64,000 bases of DNA from Kiritimatiellia bacterium (lineage in GTDB: Bacteria; Verrucomicrobiota; Kiritimatiellia; RFP12; UBA1067). Below, one piece after another: positions 1 to 13,197 of the stretch; the stretch's first letter is position 1; each line of letters begins with the position of its first letter. Made by a program: the position numbers and the translations under genes. Under the pieces are notes generated by a model. That model was not told the origin of the DNA. It did no database searches and worked only from the letters and a program-made list of their open reading frames with translations. Where the stretch lies: contig JAZSQE010000033.1 of NCBI GenBank assembly GCA_045537795.1, positions 17,469 to 81,468 on the forward strand, written 5' to 3'.

Positions 1-1
1 T

Positions 2-2494
2 GACGGGCTGGAGGACTCCATCGACACGAATCCGCTTCAGCCAGATTCGGACTCTGACGGCATGAATGACGGTTGGGAGTATCGGTATGGATTCGATCCG
101 ACAGTCAACAACGCCTCTGACAACGACCCTGACAACGACATAGGGGCTGATCCCGACGGCGATGGACTGACGAACGGGCAGGAGTGCAACTTTGGCACAG
201 ACCCGCTCGATTCCGATACGGACGGCGATGGTGTGAGCGACGGTGCAGAAGTTGGGCAGAACAGCGATCCAACTGATTCTGCCGACGGCGGGCAGCCAAA
301 TAGCCGTGTACCTGCTCCGTTCACATTCGGCGATCCAAGTGGCAGTCATTCCGAGAAATATACTCTTGAGGTCACGCCGGTTTCAGGGGATGGCGAGACC
401 CCGTCATCGTTCTCTTGGCTCAACGAGAATTATGGACAATGCGAGACCAAGATTGCAATGCTTAAGCCGGGATGGAAGTATGAAGTCAGACTGTACCACT
501 CGGGGACGAACGGCTCCGGCGATGGCTATCCCGACTATGACTACGAGCTTGATTTTGCAGGAAACGATACGACCGACGGCGTCATAAAAGACGATCCTGA
601 TGGTTTGTTCGGAACCGACTATACGAGTGATTCCTTTGCGGGAGAAGGCAAGGTCGCATACGTTTACGCGCTTGCGCCGCCAAAGCTTGTGCCAGATTAC
701 AACCGCGACAGGGCAATCACGGATGATGACGTGAATAAAGTCATGCAGAAGAAGAAACTCCGCTTCTGGATAAACGATGACGAAGACGACGATTCCACCG
801 ATGGCAAGTACGCCGAATCGCCCAGTGTTGACATCCCCGGCGCTCTGACGGGCTGGTGGTTCGAGTTTGATGGACGTGATCCCGACTGGAACGACAGCAA
901 AGTGAACGGCTACCGCGATCTCATCGACTTTACCCCGGTGTTCATGGATGTCTCGACGATCCAGATGCTCCCGGAGAGGATTCGCAACAGTCTAACGTTC
1001 AAGCTCAGTCACGCTGCAGGGGCTGTAAACGTTGTGTGGTCTGACCTGCCGAAGTCATCCGTTGGCTTGTTTCAGAGAGGTAATGTTGGCGTGTGTGGAC
1101 GGAATCTGAACGAGGACTCCTACGAAGCGGAGACCGAGCGGGTCGGAGCCGACGGCATCGCCGTTCCTGATGCGCTTGTGGCGCAGATGAAGTCCTCTTC
1201 CTCAAACAAGGGAGTCGTGTTCATAGAGGGGCGCGAAGCGACTTCTGCTCCGCTGAAACTTGACATCTACTACAACGGTCAGAAGGTTGTGACTGGCGAG
1301 TTGCCTATGGATATTTCCTCTGTCGAGGAGATGTATCGTTGGCTTAATTCACGTGGGCTGTCTGGTGAGGGCGTGGATTTCCCGTCAAGGCTTGGCGAAC
1401 CACCCAATCGTCCAGACAGTGAGACTTCCGATCGCCACCTTGTGTTTGTTCATGGTGCCAATGTCACGCAAGACGGTGCACGGGGATGGGCGGCAGAGAT
1501 TTTCAAGCGCATGTGGCAGTCGGGGATGACGGCGAAGTTCACGGCCGTGACATGGAGAAGTGACATAGGTTCGGACGCGAACTATCAGGAGAATGTCTCG
1601 AACGCCTTTTTTACGGCAAGCGCCATCGCGCAGCAGATAAAAGATCTGCCGGGGGCCAAAGTCCTCATGGCGCACTCGCTCGGTAACATGGTTTGCTCAT
1701 CTGTGATACAGGACTACGAACTTGTGCCTGATTGCTATCTTATGTGTAATTCCGCTGTTCCAGCAGAGGCGTATGACTCAGACTCGTCCCTTCGCGTTCC
1801 GCAGCTCGTACATCCCGAATGGGTGGAATACCCGACGAACTCGTGGGCGTCGTGCTGGCACTGGCTGTTCAGGAACGAACCGAACGATGATCGCAGACTC
1901 CTTGGATGGCCGGGGCGTTTCTCCAATGTCGCGCAGTATGCGTTCAATTTCTATTCGACAGGAGACGAGGTGCTGGAACTCGCAAACAACAACAATGTCC
2001 ATTCTTGGACAGGCGTTTCCGATTCATGGGGCCATTATGCGTGGCACAAGCAGGAGTTGTTCAAGGGCAGAGGCGGCGTTGGCGGCACCGACTGGGCGGG
2101 CTGGAACATCGAGGAAAACAGGCTTGGCATCAACAAGATTTCGGTCACTGAGGCTCAGTCTATGACGGAGGCCGACTTCAGGACAAATACCGTTTTCTAC
2201 TGCTATCCGCCGAGCATGAACTCGACCAACATCGCCCTGCTCGTCAGAGGCGCGCATCTTGCGCAGGGGATTCCGGCACTTACGTCGGCGGCGGGACAGA
2301 TAAGATTCGGAGATACGAGATTACGCAACGATTCATTTGATTGTAACACAACCCTACAAATTCCTCGTCCTAATGGTTGGCCAGAGCGATCAGACTACCA
2401 AGGGCAATGGTGCCATTCCGACATGAAGGATGTCGCGTACTTCTACGTGTACAAGTTTTACGATAAAATAATCGAGAAAGGAAACCTGAAATGA
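2..2494 (+). CDS. Large secreted effector-like protein (5' end outside window): thrombospondin-type-3-like Ca-binding repeats plus a C-terminal DUF900/lipase-like alpha/beta-hydrolase module
   Basis: The frame is open from nt 2 (DGLEDSIDTNPLQPDSDSDGMNDGWE...), so ATG 62 is internal. Several DxDxDGxxDxxE-type repeats are present. The C-terminal third has HLVFVHGANV...TWRSDIGSDANY...LMAHSLGNMV (Ser nucleophile elbow) and QWCHSD near the end (candidate His). The stop overlaps the next ATG. Confidence 0.7.
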   Translation, partial: DGLEDSIDTNPLQPDSDSDGMNDGWEYRYGFDPTVNNASDNDPDNDIGADPDGDGLTNGQECNFGTDPLDSDTDGDGVSDGAEVGQNSDPTDSADGGQPNSRVPAPFTFGDPSGSHSEKYTLEVTPVSGDGETPSSFSWLNENYGQCETKIAMLKPGWKYEVRLYHSGTNGSGDGYPDYDYELDFAGNDTTDGVIKDDPDGLFGTDYTSDSFAGEGKVAYVYALAPPKLVPDYNRDRAITDDDVNKVMQKKKLRFWINDDEDDDSTDGKYAESPSVDIPGALTGWWFEFDGRDPDWNDSKVNGYRDLIDFTPVFMDVSTIQMLPERIRNSLTFKLSHAAGAVNVVWSDLPKSSVGLFQRGNVGVCGRNLNEDSYEAETERVGADGIAVPDALVAQMKSSSSNKGVVFIEGREATSAPLKLDIYYNGQKVVTGELPMDISSVEEMYRWLNSRGLSGEGVDFPSRLGEPPNRPDSETSDRHLVFVHGANVTQDGARGWAAEIFKRMWQSGMTAKFTAVTWRSDIGSDANYQENVSNAFFTASAIAQQIKDLPGAKVLMAHSLGNMVCSSVIQDYELVPDCYLMCNSAVPAEAYDSDSSLRVPQLVHPEWVEYPTNSWASCWHWLFRNEPNDDRRLLGWPGRFSNVAQYAFNFYSTGDEVLELANNNNVHSWTGVSDSWGHYAWHKQELFKGRGGVGGTDWAGWNIEENRLGINKISVTEAQSMTEADFRTNTVFYCYPPSMNSTNIALLVRGAHLAQGIPALTSAAGQIRFGDTRLRNDSFDCNTTLQIPRPNGWPERSDYQGQWCHSDMKDVAYFYVYKFYDKIIEKGNLK

Positions 2495-3552
2495 AAATGA
2501 ATACAAAGATAGCTTTTGTACTTCTGCTATTGGCTCTGCCGTGCGCCGTGTTCGCACGGAAGCTTCCGCCAGAAGTTGAACACGCTATGGGGCATGGGGC
2601 CGAGGCGAAAATCCGCCTAAAGGTCTGCGACGATACTGGCGCACCAGTGTCAAATGCAAGTGTGTGCGCCGGATTTGACATGCTGCCCAGACCGCATTCA
2701 GTTTATGGAAAGACCGATACGAATGGCGTATGTGTCGTCAAGGGGAAAACAAACGGAAACAAGGTTGTTTTCCTTGTAGGCAAGGACGGATATTATGGTT
2801 CTCGGAAGGAAATATCGTATGTTCCTATGTGGAAGGAACATGATGTGAAGGACGGCAAGTGGCAGCCATATGGTGCTGTGGAAAGTATTGAATTGCGCAA
2901 AATACGCAACCCTGCGCATTTGACAGTCTCATACTCGCGCGAATTCAATAACACGAAGGTAATTAACGCTTGGATAGGGTTCGATCTGGAGAAACGCGAC
3001 TTCGTTCAACCATACGGGAAGGGTGAGATTGCAGACCTCGAAGTTCTTTTTGACTGGGATGGGAAAACTTTTGCGGACTACAGAGGAATAGCTATGAAAA
3101 CTAGGTTTACTGAGAAATTTTCCGGTTATTATCAATGTGTGGGCAAGACAGTTAGTGAATTCAAAGGGCCATATTTTGCATTGCCTGATGCCACATATCA
3201 GCAAGATGCCGATTTCTATGAGCGTGTGATAATTGACCCAAATGCCTATGGGCGACGGTATGACAGAAGGTTCTTTGACGAGAACAAGTGCTGGATTGTC
3301 CGCAGTCGGTGCAAAGTTGATGCCGAGGGCAATCTTGTGTCAGCACATTATTCCATTGTAAATAATATAGAATTTTGTTATGACAAAGGCGGCGTCGTGT
3401 GTATCTGCGTTACTGGCGCGTTCAACCCAACTCCCAACGATACGAATCTTGAGGACATCGTGACAGCCGAGAGGGCGCGTCATTTTATCCGCCAGTGTGA
3501 GCCTCCGCCACCGCCAAGGAAAAAGAAACGCAAGTCCCTTTGGCCATTTTAA
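2491..3552 (+). CDS. Secreted protein P1, paralogue family of unknown function (prealbumin/CarboxypepD_reg-like N-domain, polybasic-WPF C-terminus)
   Basis: Signal peptide MKMNTKIAFVLLLLALPCAVFA/RK. KIRLKVCDDTGAPVSNASV...TDTNGVCVVKGKTNG looks like a carboxypeptidase-regulatory-like fold. ATGA overlap with the upstream stop (2491-2494). Ends ...FNPTPNDTNLEDI...RHFIRQCEPPPPPRKKKRKSLWPF. Confidence 0.8.
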   Translation: MKMNTKIAFVLLLLALPCAVFARKLPPEVEHAMGHGAEAKIRLKVCDDTGAPVSNASVCAGFDMLPRPHSVYGKTDTNGVCVVKGKTNGNKVVFLVGKDGYYGSRKEISYVPMWKEHDVKDGKWQPYGAVESIELRKIRNPAHLTVSYSREFNNTKVINAWIGFDLEKRDFVQPYGKGEIADLEVLFDWDGKTFADYRGIAMKTRFTEKFSGYYQCVGKTVSEFKGPYFALPDATYQQDADFYERVIIDPNAYGRRYDRRFFDENKCWIVRSRCKVDAEGNLVSAHYSIVNNIEFCYDKGGVVCICVTGAFNPTPNDTNLEDIVTAERARHFIRQCEPPPPPRKKKRKSLWPF

Positions 3553-3577
3553 GTACGATCGAGAAGGATAACGAAAT
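3546..3577. repeat. 32-nt direct repeat, copy A (methyltransferase 5' leader/RBS)
   Basis: attttaagtacgatcgagaaggataacgaaat matches 8275-8306 at 29/32 positions (hand count), same orientation. Confidence 0.8.
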
Positions 3578-4442
3578 GTCAAAGAACAAGACACTGTCAG
3601 CCGCGAAGAGCGCGAAGAACGACGAGTTCTATACACAGTACGCCGACATACAAAAGGAAGTAAACGCCTACCTGGACTACAATCCCGATACCTTTCGGGG
3701 CAAGACCGTTCTCTTGCCGTGCGACGATCCGGAATGGAGCAAGTTTACCCGCTTCTTCGCCGAGAACTTTGAGCGGCTTGGGTTGAAGAAACTCATTTCC
3801 ACAAGCTATGCCGCCGCGAGCAAGAAGTTCAAGGCGCCATATCAACTATCGCTTTTTGAGTCAGGGTCGCCGCAGTTTGATGCCACTAAGACCGAAGTGC
3901 GTGGCAAGATATTCGTCCTCGACCACGACACGAACGCCAATGGGCGCATCGACCTGGACGATCTGGGATGGAAGTATCTTGACGGCGATGGCGACTTCAT
4001 GAGTGATGAGGTGTGCAGACTGCGCGACGAGGCAGATGTCATCGTCACCAATCCGCCGTTCTCGCTGTTCAGGGAGTTTCTGGCATGGATATTGGGGAGC
4101 GGGAATGTTGATCTCGTGCAGAGACGCAGAGGCGCAGAGGTAGGGTCATGCGTCCCGCGTGACCGTGATGGGAATGGTTTAGCCACAAAGAACGCAAAGG
4201 ACGCAAAGGAGTTTTTGATAATTGGGAACATGAACGCTGTTTCGTACACAGAGGTGTTTCCGCACATTCAGGGAAATACAATTTGGCTTGGTGCAACTGG
4301 TTTCGCAACAGATATGGTGTTCGCCGTGCCCAAGGGAACGCAAGTTTCGCCCGCAGACAAAGCCAAAGCCGAACGACTTGGATATGTTGGCGATTACACG
4401 AGACTTGGCAATTCGTGCTGGTTCACTAACATGGAACATTGA
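3576..4442 (+). pseudogene. EcoRI-methylase-like N6-adenine DNA methyltransferase, 3'-truncated, with an in-frame ~35-codon insert
   Basis: KNDEFYTQY near the N-terminus and DVIVTNPPFSLFREF (NPPF motif IV). The ORF ends at NSCWFTNMEH*, exactly where homology to the hydrolase 3' end begins. By my recollection family members continue well beyond WFTN. RBS GAGAAGGA precedes ATG 3576. No restriction enzyme gene is adjacent. Confidence 0.6.
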
Positions 4443-4824
4443 CGAGAACATCTTTGGCGTGAACAAGATTTCCGTTGCGGAGGCTCATACAATGACGGAA
4501 GCCGACTTCAGAACCAACACCGTTTTCTATTGCTATCCGCCAAGCATGAACCAACCGACAATTCCGCTTCTTGTCAGAGGAGCGCTTCTTGCGCAAGGAA
4601 TCCCGGCGTTGACGCCGCCAACGGGTGCAACTGCATTTGGCAACGAGTTCTACGACGACAAAATGATCAACCTTAATGACACCTTGAAGATCGAGCGCCC
4701 CAATGCGTGGCCAGACAGAAAGAAATAGACAGGACGTTGGTGTCATTCCGACTTGAAAGATGTCGCGTATTTCTACGTGTTCAAGTTCTACGAAAAAGCG
4801 ATTGAGAAAGGAAACCTCAAATGA
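4432..4824 (+). pseudogene. Orphan 3' cassette: decayed copy of the last ~130 codons of the hydrolase gene (2..2494)
   Basis: WNIDENIFGVNKISVAEAHTMTEADFRTNTVFYCYPPSMN... parallels WNIEENRLGINKISVTEAQSMTEADFRTNTVFYCYPPSMN... (49/64 identical in this block, hand count). In-frame TAG at 4726-4728. The same frame then continues WCHSDLKDVAYFYVFKFYEKAIEKGNLK* (24/28 identical to the full-length tail). No start and no upstream hydrolase body. Confidence 0.75.
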
Positions 4825-5861
4825 AAAAGTCAACTATTATAGTACTCTTGATCGTGGTGTTGCTGCCATGCGCTGTGTTTGCGCGAAAGCTTAATCCTGA
4901 AGTACGTGAAGCAATTGAAAATGGCGCAGAGGCAAAGATTATCTTGAGGGTTCACGATGACATGGACGAGCCGGTTGCGAACGCAAGTGTCCGCGTTGCC
5001 ATGGACATGCCAACAGGCGAACACTCCGTATATGGTAGAACCGACACGAACGGCGTGTGTACTATTATCGGAAAAACAAACGGCTTCTACCTTGATTTCC
5101 TTGTAGGAAAAGACGGATATTACGGATCGCGCAAGAAAATTATATTTGCGAAAATGGGGGCGGAACATGATGTGAAGGACGGCAAGTGGCAACCATATGG
5201 AGAGAAGATGTCCATTCTCCTTAAGCCGATAAAAAATCCATTGGAATTGTGTGCTGTGACTGTCAAGGATTATAAGTTTACAGATGCAATTTGTAAATGG
5301 ATTGGATACGATCTTGAGAAAAACGATTTTGTAAAACCTTATGGGGTAGGAACTGTGTCGGATTTTGAGGTTTATTTGGATTGGGACAGAGTATATTCCA
5401 TCATGGATTGCAAACAGGCAGGGTATAAAATTAGATTCTCAGAGCCGTGGTCTGGTTATTGTTTGATGCAGATAGATCCTGAGAGCGAATTCCCGACGCC
5501 ATATAATGCAGTAACGAATACTACATTTCTGCAATATGCAGAGTTCTATGATAGATATGAGGGTGAGCGGGTGAGGAACACATTTGACAAATCGAAATGC
5601 TGGGTGATCCGCAGTAGATGCAAAATCGATGAACACGGACGGTTGATTTCGGCAAATTATGCTGTTGTTCGACTTCTTGGAATGTCGGGCAGCCGAGAAT
5701 TGAAGGCTGGCTTTGGCTTCGTAGGTGCGTTCAACCCCACGCCCAACGACACGAACCTTGAAGACATTGAGACGGCTAAGCGCTCGCGTCACTTCATCCG
5801 CCAGTGCGAACCGCCGCCACCATCGCCTAAGAAGAAACGGAAAACAATTTGGCCGTTCTAA
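4821..5861 (+). CDS. Secreted protein P2, paralogue of P1
   Basis: Signal peptide MKKSTIIVLLIVVLLPCAVFA/RK. Collinear with P1 (DGKWQPYG, KPYG.G, RSRCK.D..G.L.SA.Y, FNPTPNDTNLEDI, RHFIRQCEPPPP). Ends SPKKKRKTIWPF. ATGA overlap with the orphan cassette stop (4821-4824). Confidence 0.8.
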   Translation: MKKSTIIVLLIVVLLPCAVFARKLNPEVREAIENGAEAKIILRVHDDMDEPVANASVRVAMDMPTGEHSVYGRTDTNGVCTIIGKTNGFYLDFLVGKDGYYGSRKKIIFAKMGAEHDVKDGKWQPYGEKMSILLKPIKNPLELCAVTVKDYKFTDAICKWIGYDLEKNDFVKPYGVGTVSDFEVYLDWDRVYSIMDCKQAGYKIRFSEPWSGYCLMQIDPESEFPTPYNAVTNTTFLQYAEFYDRYEGERVRNTFDKSKCWVIRSRCKIDEHGRLISANYAVVRLLGMSGSRELKAGFGFVGAFNPTPNDTNLEDIETAKRSRHFIRQCEPPPPSPKKKRKTIWPF

Positions 5862-5881
5862 TGTCTGTTAGAGGGAATATT

Positions 5882-6307
5882 ATGAAACGCCGTCGCTTTA
5901 TTGTTTTTTGCATTGCACTTGTTGCCGTGTCGTTAGTATGCGGCTGTATAAGCGATGTCCCAATCTTGCCACGCTACCGCCCTGTGGACAAACGCGATGG
6001 CCGTCTCTTCTGTTATACGCGTGATTTTGTCGATGGCAATGGCCGTCAGGTCTGTTTCTTCCGACAGCCTCTTGAGGCTTTGATGCCGGGCGGCAACGGA
6101 CAATGGGGGATAACGCCTATGCAGCTAGTTGTGGGAGTGTTTGTCGGTGTCCCGCTTGCATTGGCTGATTGGTTTGTGACAAGCCCCGTTGTTGATACAG
6201 TTCTCTTGCCGTATGATATCACGTGCAATTTCCAATCGGATAACGGGGGTGAATCGTTGCAGATTCCACATTCAAGGAATCCTCAAATCCAAGGAGGTGC
6301 GCAATGA
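5882..6307 (+). CDS. YceK/YidQ-like (DUF1375) lipoprotein
   Basis: MKRRRFIVFCIALVAVSLVCGC has a lipobox-like Cys. GVPLALADWFVTSPVVDTVLLPYDI resembles the YceK signature (...LDLPFSLVFDTLLLPIDI). ATG 5882 is preferred over the ORF-track start at 5849. The stop overlaps the P3 ATG. Confidence 0.55.
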   Translation: MKRRRFIVFCIALVAVSLVCGCISDVPILPRYRPVDKRDGRLFCYTRDFVDGNGRQVCFFRQPLEALMPGGNGQWGITPMQLVVGVFVGVPLALADWFVTSPVVDTVLLPYDITCNFQSDNGGESLQIPHSRNPQIQGGAQ

Positions 6308-7329
6308 AGAGGATGGAAATTATTATGTCGGTCGTGGTGGTATTCATCACGTCGTGCGCCATTTGCGATGAATCGACTGAATTCGCAAGGGCGTTGAATG
6401 CAGGTGCGAATGCAAAGATGATACTTCGCATAGTCAATGCGGACGGAGTTCCCATTCCTGATGCTGAAGTGGAGTTCGGCTTCTGGAACAACTATTCTCA
6501 AGGCGGATTCAAGAATTCCATATTGCGCTCTGGTACAAATGGAGAGTGCGTTGTGACTGGCCGTTGCAATGGTTCGTGTGTATGGAATGTCACAAAGCCG
6601 GGCTACTATCGTTCTCATGCCGAGTGGTCTTTGTCCGAAACACAGTCCGATCCGAAAGTCGTGGATGGTAAATGGCAACCATATGGTGCGACGAGAGAAA
6701 TAGCACTTAAACAAATCGTTTCTCCTGTGGATTTGCCCAGCCTTGAATACACCCTTATTAAGTGCCCGGTGTTTGACGAATGGCTGGGATTTGATCTTGG
6801 ATGTTATTCTTGGGTGAAGCCGTATGGTAGCGGTCTCCACTCAGATGTGTTGATTAGGCTCCATGAAGAAGGTAACGGGGACACGGCGTTTTCAGCCTCG
6901 CTTGAGTTGTGTTTTACCAATAATCCATTTGCAGGGGCATATGTCCTGAAAAAGGATGCTTATTCCGAAATGAAGAGTGTCTATCATGCTGACACCAATG
7001 CTACATATCAGACGAAGTTCCTGTACTCGTTAAGTGTGGACAGCAAAGGGAGGCGTAATGCAAACGAGTTGTCTGAAGACTCATATTTGGTATTTAGAAC
7101 AAGAACCGAAGTTGACAAAGAGGGCAATCTGCTTTCTGCTCATTACGGAAAGATATATGGAAAATGGGGTTTTTATGGTGGGATGCGGGCCGAGGCCTTT
7201 TTCTTTAATCCAACACCCAACGATCCCAATCTCGAAGATGCCAAAACCGCTGAGAGTTCGCTTCAGCGTCAACGCCAGCGTGAGGCACTCCCCTACAAAA
7301 AGAAGCGCAAGTCACTTTGGCCGTTCTGA
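6304..7329 (+). CDS. Secreted/lipoprotein P3, divergent paralogue of P1/P2
   Basis: MKRMEIIMSVVVVFITSCAICDE (lipobox-like ITSC). Shares DGKWQPYG, WLGFDL, KPYGSG, R.R.EVDKEGNLLSAHY, FNPTPNDPNLED and the terminal YKKKRKSLWPF. ATGA overlap at 6304-6307. Confidence 0.75.
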   Translation: MKRMEIIMSVVVVFITSCAICDESTEFARALNAGANAKMILRIVNADGVPIPDAEVEFGFWNNYSQGGFKNSILRSGTNGECVVTGRCNGSCVWNVTKPGYYRSHAEWSLSETQSDPKVVDGKWQPYGATREIALKQIVSPVDLPSLEYTLIKCPVFDEWLGFDLGCYSWVKPYGSGLHSDVLIRLHEEGNGDTAFSASLELCFTNNPFAGAYVLKKDAYSEMKSVYHADTNATYQTKFLYSLSVDSKGRRNANELSEDSYLVFRTRTEVDKEGNLLSAHYGKIYGKWGFYGGMRAEAFFFNPTPNDPNLEDAKTAESSLQRQRQREALPYKKKRKSLWPF

Positions 7330-7374
7330 TGTCAATGTCACAAGGAATGCGATAGCATCGAAAGGAGAAAACCG

Positions 7375-7890
7375 ATGAACATCCTAATTCTGCAGGGCTC
7401 GCCCCGTGCGAACGGTAACACGGCATGGATGGCCGAGGAGTACCGCAAGGCGGCAGCGGCTGCTGGGCACAAGGTGACGCTCGTCGACGTGGCGCACAAG
7501 AAGATCGCGGGCTGCATGGCCTGCGAATACTGCCACGGCAAGGGGAACGGAACCTGCGTCCAGAAGGATGACATGCAGGAACTCTACCCACTCCTGGACG
7601 AGGCGGAGGTTCTCGTCCTAGCGTCGCCAATCTACTACTTCACCATGTCCGCGCAGATTCAGGCACCGATCCAGCGCATCTATTGCATGAGCAAGCCGGG
7701 CAAGCTGAAGAAGATGGCGCTTCTCGCGTCCTCCTATTCGCCCGACGTATACGACGGCGCAATCGGCGAGTATCGCGGCATCCTCAACTACTGGGGTGTC
7801 GAGGATACGGGCGTCGTCACGGCCAAAAACGCCGAGCAGAAGACGGACGAGACCCGCGCCAAAATTCTCCAGCTCTTTGAAAAACTGTGA
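7375..7890 (+). CDS. Iron-sulfur flavoprotein (Isf-like), NADPH-dependent FMN reductase/flavodoxin fold
   Basis: MNILILQGSPRANGNT... is the FMN_red-type N-terminus. The compact Cys motif CMACEYCHGKGNGTC (CX2CX2CX7C) matches Isf proteins. RBS AAAGGAG lies upstream. Confidence 0.7.
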   Translation: MNILILQGSPRANGNTAWMAEEYRKAAAAAGHKVTLVDVAHKKIAGCMACEYCHGKGNGTCVQKDDMQELYPLLDEAEVLVLASPIYYFTMSAQIQAPIQRIYCMSKPGKLKKMALLASSYSPDVYDGAIGEYRGILNYWGVEDTGVVTAKNAEQKTDETRAKILQLFEKL

Positions 7891-7908
7891 TTACGTTTTT
7901 CGGGCGCA

Positions 7909-7937
7909 TTGACTCGGCAAGAGCGAGATGATAAAAT
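7909..7937 (+). promoter_or_regulatory. Predicted sigma70-type promoter TTGACT-17-TAAAAT (TG-extended) with no obvious gene
   Basis: ttgact (7909-7914), a 17-nt spacer ending ..atga, and taaaat (7932-7937). It lies in the 590-bp non-coding stretch after the flavoprotein gene. Confidence 0.4.
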
Positions 7938-8274
7938 CCCTTTGTGTTGAGTTTAGGGTCGGTATCGTATGGTCGTAGAAAAGCAGCAGATTCTCTACGG
8001 TTCAGATGTCGCCGCCCCGACCATCTTCAAACGGTACTAAGAGAATCTCTCCTTAATTGTTCAGTGTGTCAATAGGGCCATTGAAGCGGCGACGCCGTGG
8101 CTTGTCGGCACGGCTGCAGGATTGTTTGTCCTGTGGCTTATCATGCTCTGCTACAAGGCCAAGCCGTTTGCAAAGGAGCTAAAGTGGTTCTTTGGCCTGA
8201 CGCCCTTGCACAAGTTTGTCGTCATTTGCACCGTCAGCTTCTTCACCCTCTGGTGTACGGATGGAGGTAGTGCA

Positions 8275-8306
8275 ATTTTAAGTAAGATTGAGAAGGAGAA
8301 CGAAAT
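8275..8306. repeat. 32-nt direct repeat, copy B (solo copy of the methyltransferase leader)
   Basis: attttaagtaagattgagaaggagaacgaaat matches 3546-3577 at 29/32. Here ATC follows instead of ATG and there is no methyltransferase sequence. Confidence 0.8.
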
Positions 8307-8482
8307 CTTAGAACACGCCTTCTTCGCGTTCCTTGACATCGCCGCTCTTCCACGCCGAATCCGGGATCAAAAGGTCGTCGTCGAGCTTAACGCCCGAGGC
8401 GACAAGTTTAGAGCGGAGCGCCGCAGAAAAATCCCTTCTGCCGAAATCCATCTGAATCTTCCTTTTTCGATCCGGTCAGCCG

Positions 8483-9784
8483 CTACGGTTCCAGGAGAAT
8501 CCGGCGGAGTTTTTCGATATCCGCGTCGGTAAAGCCGCAGTCGCGAAAATAAGCCTCAGCCTTCTCGCGCGTCGTTTCACCGGGATAGCGCCCAAGAACA
8601 TCGTTGTAAAGCTGGAGAAAAAGATCCTTGTGGCAGAACCAGTTCCCGGGATTTGTAAACCCGGAACATTCCCAATCGCGGTAAAGCTCCTCGTCGTCGA
8701 CACCCAATACCGCTTCGATGATAAACGCGAGAGAGCCAGTGCGATCCTGGCCGCCGATGCAATGAAACACGATCGGATAATTGGACTCATCGAGAAAAAC
8801 ATCGAGACATGCCTTTGTCATCTTCATTCCGCGAGGCCTGCCGAAGCCGGAATATGCGGACGATGGCGAATGGATCCACTTCACGCGGTCCCCGAGGGGC
8901 GACTGGCTCATACCGGCGATCTCACCGTCATTGCGCAGATCGAGATCGGTTCGGATACCGAGAGTGTCGAGCATAATCGCGCGGGACTCGTCGCTCAGGC
9001 GCTCCCTGCCTCGCGCATTTGCAATCGGTACGCGATGCCAGTCGTTCGACGGCCATGAGCCTGAATATATCTTGGCCATGTGCTTCGCCTGCCAAGGAGC
9101 GCGGTTGGTCAGCGTTCCTGCGGCGAATTCAGCCCTGCATTCCGCCCATGTGAGAAAATCGATGTCTTCGGGATTGTTATTGAGACCCGCCGAACGGTAT
9201 ACGAGCCCCTGACGAATGCGCCGGGAGTTCATCGCGACGCGGCCTCCGATATCGCGGACGTTAGGGACGCCGGGAACGCGAATTAGACGAGGGGCTGTCG
9301 CGTCGGTTTCAAAATCGCGCACGGCTCTCGCGACCGTCCTACCGCCTACGACGGCAGAAACGATGACGCGATATTTCTCGCCGATCATGAGATTATCGAA
9401 GAACGCGTAAGGCTCGCGGGCGTCGACAACGCGCACGGCGCGATCTTCCCCGACTCCGACATGGCGAAGTTCGACTGAAAAGACAGGCGCAATGCCGCCC
9501 TTCTCGCCTGTCCACCGCCAGGAAACGAGAACCGGCTGCGGCTCGTTTTTGTCGAGCGCCAGCTGAGCGCGCTCACCCGCGTCGACGAACTTCTCAACCC
9601 TCTCTTCACGGGGCAGCTTAAGATATTCAAGCTGACGCTTCGAAAGGAGTTTCACCTTCTCTTCTCCGCCTTCAGGCTGAAGAATCTCAAGACTCGGCGA
9701 AGCCGAAGCCGCCAAGACGCCCATTCCTACAACGCCCGCCAGAAACAAACCTAAACTAAAACGCATTATTTTACCGCCTTTCAC
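8483..9784 (-). CDS. Secreted protein-tyrosine-phosphatase-like protein (CX5R P-loop; Y_phosphatase3-like)
   Basis: IVFHCIGGQDRTGSLAF carries HCxxGxxR(T). N-terminal signal peptide (MRFSLGLFLAGVVGMGVLAASA). The start is either GTG 9784 (GTGA overlap with the upstream stop) or ATG 9766. Confidence 0.65.
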   Translation of the reverse strand: MKGGKIMRFSLGLFLAGVVGMGVLAASASPSLEILQPEGGEEKVKLLSKRQLEYLKLPREERVEKFVDAGERAQLALDKNEPQPVLVSWRWTGEKGGIAPVFSVELRHVGVGEDRAVRVVDAREPYAFFDNLMIGEKYRVIVSAVVGGRTVARAVRDFETDATAPRLIRVPGVPNVRDIGGRVAMNSRRIRQGLVYRSAGLNNNPEDIDFLTWAECRAEFAAGTLTNRAPWQAKHMAKIYSGSWPSNDWHRVPIANARGRERLSDESRAIMLDTLGIRTDLDLRNDGEIAGMSQSPLGDRVKWIHSPSSAYSGFGRPRGMKMTKACLDVFLDESNYPIVFHCIGGQDRTGSLAFIIEAVLGVDDEELYRDWECSGFTNPGNWFCHKDLFLQLYNDVLGRYPGETTREKAEAYFRDCGFTDADIEKLRRILLEP

Positions 9785-12700: not shown

Positions 12701-13197
12701 GCGTCCGGCTTTTCTCCATAAACGAACGACGCGGCGCAAAGTCCCGCCGTAACCATGGTTCCGCCCTCACCCTGCGCGATGACATGATAACGCACGCCCT
12801 TTTTAAGCGGATAAGGCAGCTCAAGGGTAACCTCGGAACGGGTGAGCGACGTCGCGGCGCCCTTCGTTCTCACGCCTCCAGGAATGTCGAATTCATTCTT
12901 GGACGGTTTCGCGAGCAGAACCTTCGTAGGAGTGACGAACTTATGGTATGCGTAATTCGCGTCGCCGTCGCCGATTATGCGATACGATTTAGGCTGCGAG
13001 CGAACATGGGTAACCGAGCTTCCGATCACAATTCGGACAGTCTTCTCGTCCAGCGCGCGCGCGCTTCGTACACCGTACACGCGCATAACATCGCGTTTGA
13101 TATCGGGAACATCCGTAAAATCACGGGCGAATGCCACGCCCGACAGAAAAACGCCGAACGTGAAAACTCCAACCATTGACGAATACGATAATTTCAT
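9781..13197 (-). CDS. Glycoside hydrolase family 9 enzyme with N-terminal Ig-like domain and an inserted LamG/ConA-like domain
   Basis: IKVNQVGYLPD (CelD-type Ig domain). ITGGHHDAGDYNPRSH (GH9 DAGD motif). A C-terminal AMDEPTVNN region. Insert LTFSFMVRRDD...FAIWVNWGVVKF...KKWHRVVVRI looks LamG-like. Signal peptide present. ATGA overlap at 13194-13197. Confidence 0.7.
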   Translation of the reverse strand: MKLSYSSMVGVFTFGVFLSGVAFARDFTDVPDIKRDVMRVYGVRSARALDEKTVRIVIGSSVTHVRSQPKSYRIIGDGDANYAYHKFVTPTKVLLAKPSKNEFDIPGGVRTKGAATSLTRSEVTLELPYPLKKGVRYHVIAQGEGGTMVTAGLCAASFVYGEKPDAGDDGDRIAARMTGLRRISSVGDGKVLCEFGHGYSPDGGLRLSNWKVLVNGEERKILALGRRTRLECYQPTGWPFKGYLEHSIFLDLGGEFKKGDDVVVEVSPGVCAGARSASMRFDPAKSLSQSIKVNQVGYLPDALKVAYVGRWLGSMPDSGVVSSESKGDDATNFSKEAYYAEAGKGTQEERENARIAAEKAAEAEKEKIATAAAPTSRENDYDSLAPYALRLRGDHTFALLEAASGRRVFEGALKLVHNGLDMDGKANHSAENVYEADFTEFKNPGVYVLSVDGVGRSLPFEISSDVYKKAFLAQARGIYLQRCGCEIDPKLSGGWKRIACHNKGVITTTVQRHSAGEWGDFTDNMEMDPNPDYPLVRRRREAVENDSSRLKPEFKIVGKTKRVSDAAFKEVFACGDDQINNGVETSPIAFDPDKGLTFSFMVRRDDSLAGNNWGGRLFGIGEGRNLFAIWVNWGVVKFHPKFSRRINDKKWHRVVVRISPADAGKKHPVDVFYDGQRWGGMTASVDLTKPQKIEFAKASGAAEGLYTADPMLFNRALDMSELKDLASSVPEKIPHRLHITGGHHDAGDYNPRSHIDVAQALLNAYELSPENFTDSQLSVPERGNGIPDIVDEAIWAVRLWEGLQDSDGGVRNGTESQGDPNFIQTVELDDKGDYAWAKDVKGSYLASGVFAQLSRILEKCGKTKRSKELLLRSRRAYEWAVKNPVKGMKDLSDWGEYHLALRAYAAAQLYHTTWEKRYHDDFIASTPWREKPETELMSHGYFNLQLAAYAYVMIPREKADAAVWDAVLGSIRKEGEMYVRGSEQMAYKFLRHPYAPITWGTGAYENYAVPAAYLWKLTGENRWRDWLVRTCDNTLGANPMGLSWITALGSRTVRCPLHNSRYRPEGLPAEGIQEQGPNKNFAGYSYRDTAYPRCAERFALLYQHSDVHFAIAMDEPTVNNMANTMFIFGLLSSENPEK

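What the first reader, a model, noticed from the sequence alone, without database searches (positions are those of the whole stretch)
4432..4824. Orphan hydrolase 3' cassette with an in-frame TAG that keeps its coupling to a partner gene
Only the last ~130 codons of the hydrolase gene are duplicated. Identity to the full-length gene is high in two blocks (49/64 and 24/28 residues, hand count). A ~40-residue block between them is replaced (TSAAGQIRFGDTRLRNDSFDCNTTLQIPRPNGWPERSDYQGQ versus TPPTGATAFGNEFYDDKMINLNDTLKIERPNAWPDRKK*TGR).

The copy has no start, carries TAG at 4726-4728, and still ends in the ATGA overlap with P2. The duplicated segment includes the candidate catalytic His (WCHSD).

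This is the architecture of displaced toxin-tip/immunity modules in polymorphic toxin loci (established for Rhs/CdiA). It suggests past or possible C-terminal swapping by recombination. A simpler alternative is a tandem duplication whose 5' part was deleted when the methyltransferase segment arrived.
Basis: partly seen in the sequence, partly recalled or inferred. Interest (0 to 1): 0.65.

Follow-up and report, generated by a model that had tools for sequence, protein, structure and literature searches.

The report
Displaced hydrolase tip beside kept partner
A broken-off tail end of a giant lipase-like gene sits beside its still-intact partner gene in a gut/rumen Kiritimatiellae genome; it is a leftover of cassette swapping in what looks like an undescribed family of bacterial toxin/antidote-type loci.

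Summary
Window 4432-4824 repeats the last 130 codons of the giant hydrolase gene (2102-2494), with identities of 49/64, 14/38 and 24/28 residues. It has an in-frame TAG and an ATGA overlap with P2.

A congeneric MAG (UBA3750) carries this tip type, 95% identical, in an open 1396-codon hydrolase frame, followed by a P2-type gene. The match is 96.5% nt over 1357 nt and starts exactly at 4431.

The expressed gene of this genome and the UBA3750 gene are 97-100% identical across the catalytic core. Identity then drops sharply just after the catalytic Asp (about 1985). The other end of the 2.45-kb tipA-P1-methylase block is a 12/14-nt microhomology joint.

So the orphan is a displaced, truncated, stop-bearing old tip, kept with its partner. 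In related loci nearly every extra P gene examined is preceded by such a remnant (25-163 codons). The hypervariable tip block tracks the C-terminal domain of P (10/15 nearest-neighbour agreement, p about 2e-4).

Toxin and immunity roles are inferred, not shown. No CDI, Rhs or T6SS marker was found. Reads could not be checked.

The parts
2..2494 (+). Last 830 codons of the expressed giant hydrolase gene. The frame is open from contig C43 position 12799 (about 2345-2387 codons in all). It has two N-terminal hydrophobic helices, 18 TSP3 repeats and a C-terminal alpha/beta-hydrolase domain.
   Evidence: Pfam finds TSP3_bac (7.5e-82) and weak Abhydrolase_6/DUF900 matches.
1301..1985 (+). Conserved catalytic core with the nucleophile Ser (AHSLGN, 1676-1678) and Asp (STGDE, 1964-1966). 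It is 97-100% nt identical to the UBA3750 gene. Identity collapses just after about 1985, which marks the left recombination breakpoint.
   Evidence: Sliding identity. Invariant S126/D222/H372. Lipase/phospholipase-like fold hits (1ex9, PlaB).
1986..2494 (+). Type-A tip of the expressed gene, including the hypervariable block at 2294-2407 and the catalytic His at 2414-2416.
   Evidence: The same tip type occurs in L040/P0121-P0123.
2491..3552 (+). P1, the partner of the type-A tip. It has a signal peptide and a 4-nt ATGA overlap with the hydrolase stop.
   Evidence: L040 pairs a type-A tip with a P1-type gene.
3543..3577 (+). P-stop/methylase 'leader': the last 8 nt of P1 plus the intergenic stretch. 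It recurs at 8272-8306 (89%).
   Evidence: repeat D8.
3576..4442 (+). EcoRI-like N6-adenine methyltransferase gene, truncated at its 3' end after WFTNMEH. Intact relatives have 412-452 aa and continue GRRHQP...
   Evidence: Pfam EcoRI_methylase 2.3e-77. PADLOC MTase_II. Intact homologues.
4426..4439 (+). Right-hand joint. It is a patch of 12/14-nt similarity between the methylase sequence (ATTGAACATGGACG) and the hydrolase sequence (ATGGAACATTGACG).
   Evidence: Four-way alignment.
4432..4824 (+). Orphan type-B tip remnant of 130 codons plus stop. It has no start of its own and lacks the Ser and Asp of the triad. TAG is at 4726-4728, the hypervariable block at 4624-4737 and the His codon at 4744-4746.
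4804..4824 (+). The last tip codons double as the P2 translation start region. GAGAAAGGAAACCT is the longest exact match (14 nt) between the two tip copies, and is followed by the ATGA overlap.
   Evidence: Even the shortest remnants elsewhere (25 codons, L038) keep this end.
4821..5861 (+). P2, the intact partner of the type-B tip. The predicted product has a signal peptide, a transthyretin/CarboxypepD_reg-like beta-sandwich and a beta-rich C-terminal domain with no strong PDB match. It is under purifying selection against the UBA3750 copy (dN/dS about 0.15).
5849..7329 (+). A small exported protein gene (5849-6307) and a third partner paralogue, P3 (6304-7329). No tip remnant precedes P3.
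   Evidence: tblastn of the hydrolase domain finds only two hits in 1-9000.
8053..8306 (+). The first 67 or so codons of a second giant hydrolase gene (P0121/P0125-type N-terminus, start codon lost), joined to the second copy of the P-stop/methylase leader. This looks like the scar of another deleted locus.
   Evidence: compared with the P0121/P0125 N-termini.

Best explanation
**What it is.** Window 4432-4824 is a dead, 5'-truncated remnant of an older C-terminal 'tip' (type B) of the giant TSP3-repeat alpha/beta-hydrolase gene. It was left in place together with its cognate partner gene P2.

**How it arose.**
- Shown: an ancestor resembled the UBA3750 allele (core, then tip B, then P2).
- Shown: a 2.45-kb block now lies between the core and the rest of tip B. 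The block holds a different tip (type A), its partner P1 and part of an EcoRI-like methylase gene.
- Shown: the left boundary is a sharp break in an otherwise near-identical catalytic core, just after the Asp codon (about 1985). The right boundary is a 12/14-nt microhomology joint (4426-4439).
- Inferred: the block entered in one step, by homology-facilitated illegitimate recombination. Alternatively there was a displacement followed by a microhomology deletion that also removed the methylase 3' end and a DUF262/HNH gene. In UBA3750 contig C100 that gene still lies between methylase and orphan.

**What happened afterwards.** The old tip lost about 40 codons of its variable region and later acquired a stop. 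Its last 25 or so codons persist because they hold the ribosome-binding site and start overlap of P2 (inferred).

**What the system does (inferred, about 0.6).**
- The hydrolase is a secreted or surface lipase-type antagonistic effector.
- P proteins are exported inhibitors. Their C-terminal domain recognises the roughly 40-residue hypervariable loop next to the catalytic His.
- P2 is kept as protection against neighbours that make type-B enzymes.
For: **Homology and boundaries**
- establish the repeat and its limits.
- UBA3750 holds the orphan-type tip (95% aa, no stop) in a 1396-codon open frame, followed by a P2-type gene with the same overlap.
- The nt match is 96.5% over 1357 nt and starts exactly at window 4431.
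- The orphan differs from that allele at 11 codons only, one of them the stop.

**Breakpoints**
- The left breakpoint is sharp: 97-100% identity across 1300-1985, then 40-85%.
- The right joint is a microhomology patch.
- Direction of descent: UBA3750 retains about 40 type-B codons that the orphan lacks. The orphan therefore derives from an intact tip, not the reverse.

**Generality**
- Tip remnants of 25-163 codons precede extra P genes in L027 (two), L029, L038 (two), L028, L053, L054 and own contig C73.
- The orphan tip in L029 is the main tip of P0125/L052 (96% in the variable block). The C-terminal domains of their P partners are 95% identical.

**Mosaic alleles**
- P0134, P0135 and P0138 are near-identical until just before the variable block, yet carry three different blocks.

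**Tip-partner pairing**
- Nearest neighbours by tip block and by P C-domain agree in 10 of 15 modules (permutation mean 1.06, p about 2e-4). For the physically intervening P N-domain the figure is 6 of 15.

**Other support**
- P2 shows dN/dS of about 0.15.
- P copies outnumber hydrolase tips: 9 against 6 in this genome, with arrays of at least 6 elsewhere.
- Ser, Asp and His are invariant.
- P2 has an N-terminal signal-like helix.
Against: - No toxicity, binding or secretion data exist for any member.
- No known delivery machinery is linked. TssC is absent from 60 of 61 related genomes, this one included. Pfam finds no CDI, Rhs or PAAR domain in the 2387-aa protein.
- The only near-identical intact type-B tip (UBA3750) sits in a frame that lacks the N-terminal 1000 or so codons seen here. 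That frame abuts restriction-modification genes, so the gene may itself be 5'-truncated. The next nearest full-length gene has a 78% tip.
- One locus (L038) pairs an E-type tip with a P1-type first partner. This could be a real mismatch or a metagenome assembly chimera.
- The first, wider co-variation test was only modest after controlling for relatedness (partial r 0.21).
- The hydrolase model is poor in the tip region (pLDDT below 50 at 219-269 and 330-373).
- All genomes are MAGs or metagenome contigs, and reads could not be inspected.
Confidence: 0.75

Rival explanations
1. The tip+P module was duplicated in tandem in place. The copies then diverged, and the 5' part of the second copy was deleted when the methylase segment arrived.
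For: The two modules are co-linear and ungapped over the tip. The 5' end of the orphan is indeed a joint with the methylase gene.
Against: The orphan+P2 block is 96.5% identical to the UBA3750 allele but only 69.6% identical to its neighbour. The type-A tip+P1 has its own close relatives elsewhere (L040). The two modules are therefore old alleles brought together by recombination, not recent in-place copies. The sharp identity break at about 1985 in the expressed gene is not predicted by duplication.
Confidence: 0.08
2. The locus is not a conflict system. The giant protein is a surface adhesin or lipase used for feeding or attachment. P is a dedicated folding, export or regulatory partner (as lipases have Lif foldases). 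The remnants are ordinary decay products of gene-family turnover.
For: The fold hits are generic lipases and phospholipases, including the LipA:LipB complex entry. There is no known antibacterial delivery system. P matches no known immunity fold. P has a conserved N-domain and a basic WPF tail suggesting a role beyond inhibition.
Against: P is all-beta and carries a signal peptide, unlike helical Lif. A hypervariable loop flanked by invariant sequence is typical of antagonistic pairs, as are mosaic alleles in near-identical genes and arrays of up to 6 or more P genes per hydrolase. So are systematic orphan remnants and tip-P C-domain pairing that persists across a freely exchanged intervening segment.
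Confidence: 0.2
3. The orphan is a live reserve cassette. Recombination with the expressed gene can switch the tip (antigenic-variation style), and the TAG is tolerated or corrected in a subpopulation.
For: Tip swapping clearly happens in the family. Orphan Rhs/CdiA tips can be activated by recombination in other bacteria (PMC3150448, together with general knowledge).
Against: This copy lacks the first 40 or so codons of the variable tip. Its stop lies upstream of the catalytic His. It shares at most 14 nt of exact identity with the expressed gene, and otherwise no more than 11 nt. That is below the length usually needed for efficient RecA recombination (general knowledge). TAG is a normal stop here.
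Confidence: 0.05
4. The arrangement is an assembly artefact: two strain alleles in the metagenome were stitched together into one contig.
For: The genome is a 77-contig MAG. Polymorphic loci with conserved stretches are prone to chimeric assembly. Contigs C73 and C74 break at such a repeat.
Against: The joint lies between unrelated genes (methylase and hydrolase) with only 12/14 nt of similarity. That is far shorter than assembler k-mers. Equivalent remnants occur in many independent assemblies. The contig is 91 kb long.
Confidence: 0.05

Closest known systems
Orphan cdiA-CT/cdiI modules downstream of cdiBAI loci (Poole et al. 2011, PMC3150448)
   Same: Arrays of 3' toxin-tip fragments lie next to intact partner genes downstream of the expressed gene. 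The fragments lack translation starts but keep some upstream homology. Orphan tips match main tips in other strains. The partner gene is intact and plausibly expressed.
   Different: No CdiB/CdiA two-partner secretion domains, FHA repeats or VENN motif are present. What is swapped is not a whole toxin domain. It is the last third of a single conserved alpha/beta-hydrolase fold, running from after the Asp to the His. The partner is an exported beta-protein of about 340 aa, not a small cytoplasmic CdiI.
Rhs/YD-repeat loci with displaced rhs-CT/rhsI orphans
   Same: A large repeat-rich protein carries a polymorphic C-terminus, the immunity gene follows directly, and successive displaced tips accumulate downstream.
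   Different: No RHS/YD repeats and no PxxxxDPxGL demarcation are present. The repeats here are bacterial TSP3 calcium-binding repeats. No T6SS is present.
T6SS lipase effectors Tle1-4 with periplasmic Tli immunity proteins
   Same: Both have a GxSxG-type serine hydrolase (here AHSLG), a partner gene with a signal peptide immediately downstream, and arrays of multiple immunity genes.
   Different: No T6SS sheath gene is found in 60 of 61 related genomes. There is no match to the Tle Pfam families, only weak DUF900/Abhydrolase_6 hits. The effector domain is fused to a giant repeat protein of 1300-2400 aa.
Homology-facilitated illegitimate recombination (one homologous anchor plus a microhomology joint; described for naturally transformable bacteria, general knowledge)
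   Same: One end of the 2.45-kb block lies in near-identical sequence. The other end is a short microhomology joint.
   Different: The process itself was not observed. A two-step route (displacement, then deletion) fits equally well.
Family I lipase with its Lif foldase (LipA/LipB)
   Same: A lipase-like enzyme has a dedicated, translationally coupled downstream partner. LipA structures are among the best fold hits.
   Different: P is an all-beta exported protein with a transthyretin-like N-domain, not a helical membrane-anchored foldase. Lif genes do not form polymorphic arrays with orphan lipase fragments.

Membership tests
Polymorphic toxin system (general definition: Zhang et al. 2012; Jamet & Nassif 2015, PMC4436062) | Large multidomain exported protein with a conserved body and a polymorphic C-terminal region | tested here: met
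   Alleles are near-identical upstream but carry different C-terminal blocks.
Polymorphic toxin system (general definition: Zhang et al. 2012; Jamet & Nassif 2015, PMC4436062) | Cognate partner (immunity) gene immediately downstream that varies together with the tip | tested here: met
   A 4-nt overlap is present in nearly all loci. Tip block and P C-domain nearest neighbours agree in 10 of 15 modules, p about 2e-4. There is one exception, L038.
Polymorphic toxin system (general definition: Zhang et al. 2012; Jamet & Nassif 2015, PMC4436062) | Orphan tip/partner cassettes downstream of the expressed gene | tested here: met
   Found in the window and in L027, L028, L029, L038, L053, L054 and own C73.
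Polymorphic toxin system (general definition: Zhang et al. 2012; Jamet & Nassif 2015, PMC4436062) | The C-terminal domain is toxic to competitors and is neutralised specifically by the partner | not testable with these tools
   This needs expression and competition assays.
CDI (CdiB/CdiA/CdiI) | TPS domain, FHA repeats and a VENN-type demarcation motif in the large protein; cdiB nearby | tested here: not met
   The Pfam scan of the 2387-aa protein finds only TSP3_bac and weak hydrolase families. The neighbouring genes are unrelated.
Rhs/YD toxins | RHS/YD repeats forming a shell, and the PxxxxDPxGL motif | tested here: not met
   No RHS repeat family was hit.
T6SS Tle/Tli | Presence of a T6SS (sheath TssC/VipB) | tested here: not met
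   PF05943 is absent from this genome and from 59 of 60 relatives. The positive control gave a hit.
T6SS Tle/Tli | Serine-hydrolase GxSxG motif and an exported immunity protein | tested here: met
   The AHSLG Ser is invariant. P2 has an N-terminal signal-like helix at residues 2-19.
Lipase-specific foldase (Lif) pairs | The partner is a helical, membrane-anchored steric chaperone | tested here: not met
   The P2 model (pLDDT 92) is nearly all beta-strand.
Alpha/beta-hydrolase fold, lipase-like | Ser-Asp-His triad on an alpha/beta core | tested here: inconclusive
   The three residues are invariant and the core gives lipase/phospholipase fold hits. The model is low-confidence around Asp and His, so triad geometry was not verified.

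The most novel reading that the evidence does not exclude
Gut and rumen Kiritimatiellae may carry a previously undescribed interbacterial (or host-directed) lipase-toxin system on giant TSP3-repeat proteins, delivered without T6SS, CDI or Rhs machinery. In this reading, specificity is diversified by swapping only the His-bearing third of one catalytic fold, including a roughly 40-residue hypervariable loop. That segment is swapped together with the C-terminal domain of a new class of exported beta-rich immunity protein. The remnants record successive displacements.
Probability: 0.5. Interest if true: 0.7.

Novelty: new variant of a known kind. Interest (0 to 1): 0.55.

Why it matters
Orphan tip/immunity arrays are the signature of CDI, Rhs and Maf toxin loci. 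Finding the same signature in uncultured PVC-group gut bacteria has three consequences.
- It gives a concrete candidate for how these abundant rumen and gut organisms compete. The enzyme family, partner family and (unknown) export route all appear unrelated to the known systems.
- The system shows an unusual form of diversification. The enzyme core stays constant, and only the loop-bearing end of the same fold is exchanged along with one domain of the partner. That makes it a clean natural system for studying inhibitor-specificity evolution.
- It provides hundreds of natural tip/partner pairs for testing.

For genome annotation, it explains a recurrent class of 'hypothetical' fragments that sit upstream of P-family genes.

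Tried and rejected
- Sequence search of the hydrolase domain against PDB chains gave nothing (best E 1.2).
- NCBIfam and PADLOC gave nothing for the hydrolase or for P. Only the methylase was hit.
- Foldseek of the P2 model matched only the generic transthyretin/CarboxypepD_reg-like N-domain (TM about 0.2). There was no known immunity fold.
- The promoter/terminator scan of 2400-8500 was no better than shuffled sequence. How P2 is transcribed is therefore unresolved.
- An exact search for the joint in JGI metagenome contigs found no match.
There is thus no read-level check of the TAG, the joint or recombinant subpopulations.
- The first co-variation test across all loci was confounded by relatedness (Mantel rho 0.53, partial r 0.21). 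It was replaced by a nearest-neighbour test within the close clade.
- TAG recoding was rejected, because TAG is a common stop here.
- The idea that UBA3750 arose by activation of an orphan like this one was rejected. UBA3750 keeps type-B codons that the orphan lacks.
- Literature searches found no paper linking Kiritimatiellae to polymorphic toxins, or to giant TSP3-repeat proteins.
Full report
**Context.** The window is contig C43:17469-81468 of a 2.36-Mb, 77-contig MAG with 56.8% G+C. Its closest public relatives are Kiritimatiellae MAGs, some of them from ruminant gut samples. The window opens inside a very long frame that is open from contig position 12799, about 2345-2387 codons in all. 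Its product has two N-terminal hydrophobic helices, 18 bacterial TSP3 repeats and a C-terminal alpha/beta-hydrolase domain.

The gene order downstream is as follows:
- P1 (2491-3552)
- a truncated EcoRI-like adenine methyltransferase gene (3576-4442)
- the fragment in question (4432-4824)
- P2 (4821-5861)
- a small exported protein gene (5849-6307)
- P3 (6304-7329)

- blastn pairs 2102-2873 with 4432-5200 (69.6%, E 4e-83) and pairs the P gene 3' ends at 76%.
The nt identities are 76.6, 45.6 and 85.7%.
- TAG lies at 4726-4728, upstream of the His codon of WCHSD (4744-4746).
- The fragment ends in the same ATGA overlap with P2 as the full gene has with P1.
- TAG is a normal stop codon in this genome.
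- Ser (AHSLGN), Asp (STGDE) and His (WxHSD) are invariant in 42 family members. The fragment therefore carries only the third member of the presumed triad.

**An intact counterpart exists.**
- A search of 60 related genomes with the fragment (X at the stop) found G034:C36, the public MAG UBA3750. There the same tip, 95% identical and without a stop, closes a 1396-codon open hydrolase frame. A P2-type gene follows with the same overlap.
- At nt level that contig matches window 4431-5787 at 96.5% over 1357 nt, up to the contig end. The match starts exactly at the 5' edge of the fragment.
- The fragment differs from the UBA3750 tip at 11 codons: 5 synonymous and 6 not. One of these is the stop, where UBA3750 has a tyrosine codon that differs by a single base. 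P2 differs at 32 of 322 codons, with dN/dS of about 0.15.
- Caveat: the UBA3750 frame starts in the middle of the repeat region, next to restriction-modification genes. It may itself be 5'-truncated.
- Among public proteins it is the only one with a true type-B tip. The next best is a complete 1360-aa gene (P0126) with a 78%-identical tip, seen on 6 contigs read. At the two places shown it is followed at a 4-nt overlap by a 348-aa gene, and in L050 that gene is 69% identical to P2, about 80% in its C-terminal half.

**How the arrangement arose.**
- The expressed gene of this genome and the UBA3750 gene are 97-100% identical at nt level from about window 1300 to 1985. Identity then falls abruptly to 40-85%.
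- The break lies just after the Asp codon (…STGDEVLELA|).
- The other end of the foreign block is at 4426-4439. Here the methylase sequence (ATTGAACATGGACG in an intact relative) and the hydrolase sequence (ATGGAACATTGACG) are alike at 12 of 14 positions, and the two homologies hand over.
- So a 2.45-kb block (type-A tip, P1, and a methylase gene cut after WFTNMEH) stands where UBA3750 has about 120 nt of type-B tip.
- UBA3750 retains type-B codons that the orphan lacks. The orphan therefore derives from an intact tip, not the reverse.

Two routes fit these facts.
1. A one-step integration with one homologous anchor and one microhomology joint.
2. A displacement followed by a microhomology deletion.

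The second route is suggested by UBA3750 contig C100. There an intact methylase and a DUF262/HNH gene lie between a P-gene end and another orphan tip plus a P1-type gene.

The in-place duplication alternative is disfavoured. The orphan+P2 block is far closer to the UBA3750 allele (96.5%) than to its neighbour (69.6%). The type-A tip+P1 also has its own close relatives (L040).

**The pattern is a family property.**
- This genome has five further hydrolase/P loci or pieces of them, on C50, C60, C73, C74 and C77.
- In related contigs, extra P genes are preceded by hydrolase 3' remnants of variable length:

| Locus | Remnant length (codons) |
|---|---|
| L027 | 53 and 71 |
| L029 | 90 |
| L038 | 25 and 43 |
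| L028 (UBA3750 C100) | about 160 |
| L053 | about 108 |
| L054 | 78 |

- Own contig C73 carries a gene with an internal deletion that fuses upstream sequence directly to a tip at the same D-EVF boundary. A P gene and a methylase fragment follow.
- Every remnant keeps the last 25 or so codons. In the window, the longest exact match between the two tip copies is GAGAAAGGAAACCT. This is the Shine-Dalgarno-like stretch 9 nt before the P start. I infer that the remnants persist because they carry the partner's translation start region.

**Mosaic alleles and pairing.**
- P0134, P0135 and P0138 are nearly identical through the core but carry three different hypervariable blocks. P0135 and P0138 diverge only after GIPALTPA.
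- L038 and L039 are the same chromosomal locus, with the same upstream kinase gene, but carry different tips.
- Within the close clade, the nearest neighbour by tip block equals the nearest neighbour by P C-terminal domain in 10 of 15 modules (permutation mean 1.06, p about 2e-4). The P N-terminal domain lies physically between the two, yet agrees in only 6 of 15.
- Examples:
  - The orphan tip of L029 is the main tip of L052/P0125 (96%). Their P C-domains are 95% identical.
  - E-type tips in L030, L053 and L054 all have the AEWDGLPPWESCYCQG-type partner.
- Pairing that survives exchange of the intervening segment points to selection on the pair, not mere linkage.
- One exception is L038, where an E-type tip is followed by a P1-type first partner. 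This may be a real recombinant or a metagenome assembly chimera.

**Function.**
- The hydrolase domain has no PDB relative by sequence. Its model is good in the core and poor in the tip (pLDDT 68 overall). The best fold hits are lipases and phospholipases, including P. aeruginosa LipA and Legionella PlaB.
- The P2 model is confident (pLDDT 92). It shows a signal-like helix, a transthyretin/CarboxypepD_reg-like sandwich and a beta-rich domain that has no strong PDB match.
- The P family has more than 430 members and the hydrolase family more than 300. The few source names are 'hypothetical protein' or look like mislabels.
- P copies outnumber hydrolase tips: 9 against 6 here, with arrays of at least 6 elsewhere.
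- No T6SS sheath gene occurs in this genome or in 59 of 60 relatives. No CDI, Rhs or PAAR domain is found.
- The toxin/immunity reading therefore rests on architecture and evolutionary pattern only. I put it at about 0.6.

**Comparison with known systems.**
- The closest analogue is the orphan cdiA-CT/cdiI and rhs-CT/rhsI arrays (PMC3150448). Those are start-less tip fragments with intact, expressed immunity genes, and they match main tips in other strains.
- Membership in CDI, Rhs or Tle/Tli fails on the defining features tested.
- The distinctive point here is that only the last third of a single conserved catalytic fold is exchanged, not a whole toxin domain.

**Verdict.**
- The finding is real and its interpretation is supported.
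- This particular copy is a dead remnant. It is unlikely to serve as a source for future switching.
- The roles of enzyme and partner, and the export route, remain to be shown.

Noticed in passing
window 8053-8306: A stretch of about 67 codons is nearly identical to the N-terminus of other giant hydrolase alleles (P0121/P0125: ...VNRAIEAATPWLVGTAAGLFVLWLIMLCYKAKPFAKELKWFFGLTPLHKFVVICTVSFFTLW), with the start codon lost. It is joined at 8272 to a second copy (89%) of the P-stop/methylase leader found at 3543-3577. This looks like the scar of a second, almost wholly deleted hydrolase locus. The promoter-like site at 7909-7937 would then be that gene's promoter.
   Followed up: partly
own genome contigs C73 (10400-12805) and C74 (1-3300): The two contigs begin with 285 nt that are 95% alike. 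C74 then continues into a full hydrolase domain. C73 lacks about 1345 nt and fuses ...RIYD directly to EVF..., at the catalytic-Asp boundary, with a different tip (67% nt). A P gene and a fragmented copy of the same EcoRI-like methylase follow (84-87% nt to window 3562-4309).
   Followed up: partly
window 4100-4206; L048 (UBA3750 C100) 17-1375; L049 (G019 C54) 854-2092: The basic insert of about 35 residues in the methylase (…QRRRGAEVGS…ATKNAKDAKEF…) is also present in intact 412-452-aa homologues. It is therefore a family feature, not a scar of the truncation. In those genomes the methylase is followed by a DUF262+HNH gene.
   Followed up: partly
L040 8978-9271; L053 10456-12134; own C74 4111-6216: DNA-modification genes repeatedly flank the 3' end of hydrolase/P arrays. 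They are MmeI-type enzymes here and EcoRI-like methylases in the window, in C73 and in UBA3750 C100. The arrays seem to sit next to restriction-modification genes in variable islands.
   Followed up: no
L041 1251-1637 (JGI contig): This contig carries a P1 identical in protein sequence. It matches the window for only 24 nt past the P1 stop and then diverges, with no methylase. At least one strain therefore has the same tip-A/P1 module in a different downstream context.
   Followed up: partly
window 3520-3552, 5829-5861, 7297-7329; L040, L054: P1, P2 and P3 end in KKKRK-[ST]-[LI]-WPF. The same tail is seen on P proteins of L040 and L054 but not on many other family members. Its role (sorting or anchoring?) is unknown.
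   Followed up: no
G049:C35:3878-9832: A single hydrolase tip hit is followed by six to seven consecutive P-family matches. This was the longest array seen.
   Followed up: no
contig C43 3798-10775 (upstream of the window): Upstream of the giant gene lie a large predicted ATPase gene, further long uncharacterised ORFs and a gene for a putative ATP-dependent DNA-binding regulator. I read these as defence-type genes, but no family search was run on them. If correct, the locus sits in a variable island.
   Followed up: no
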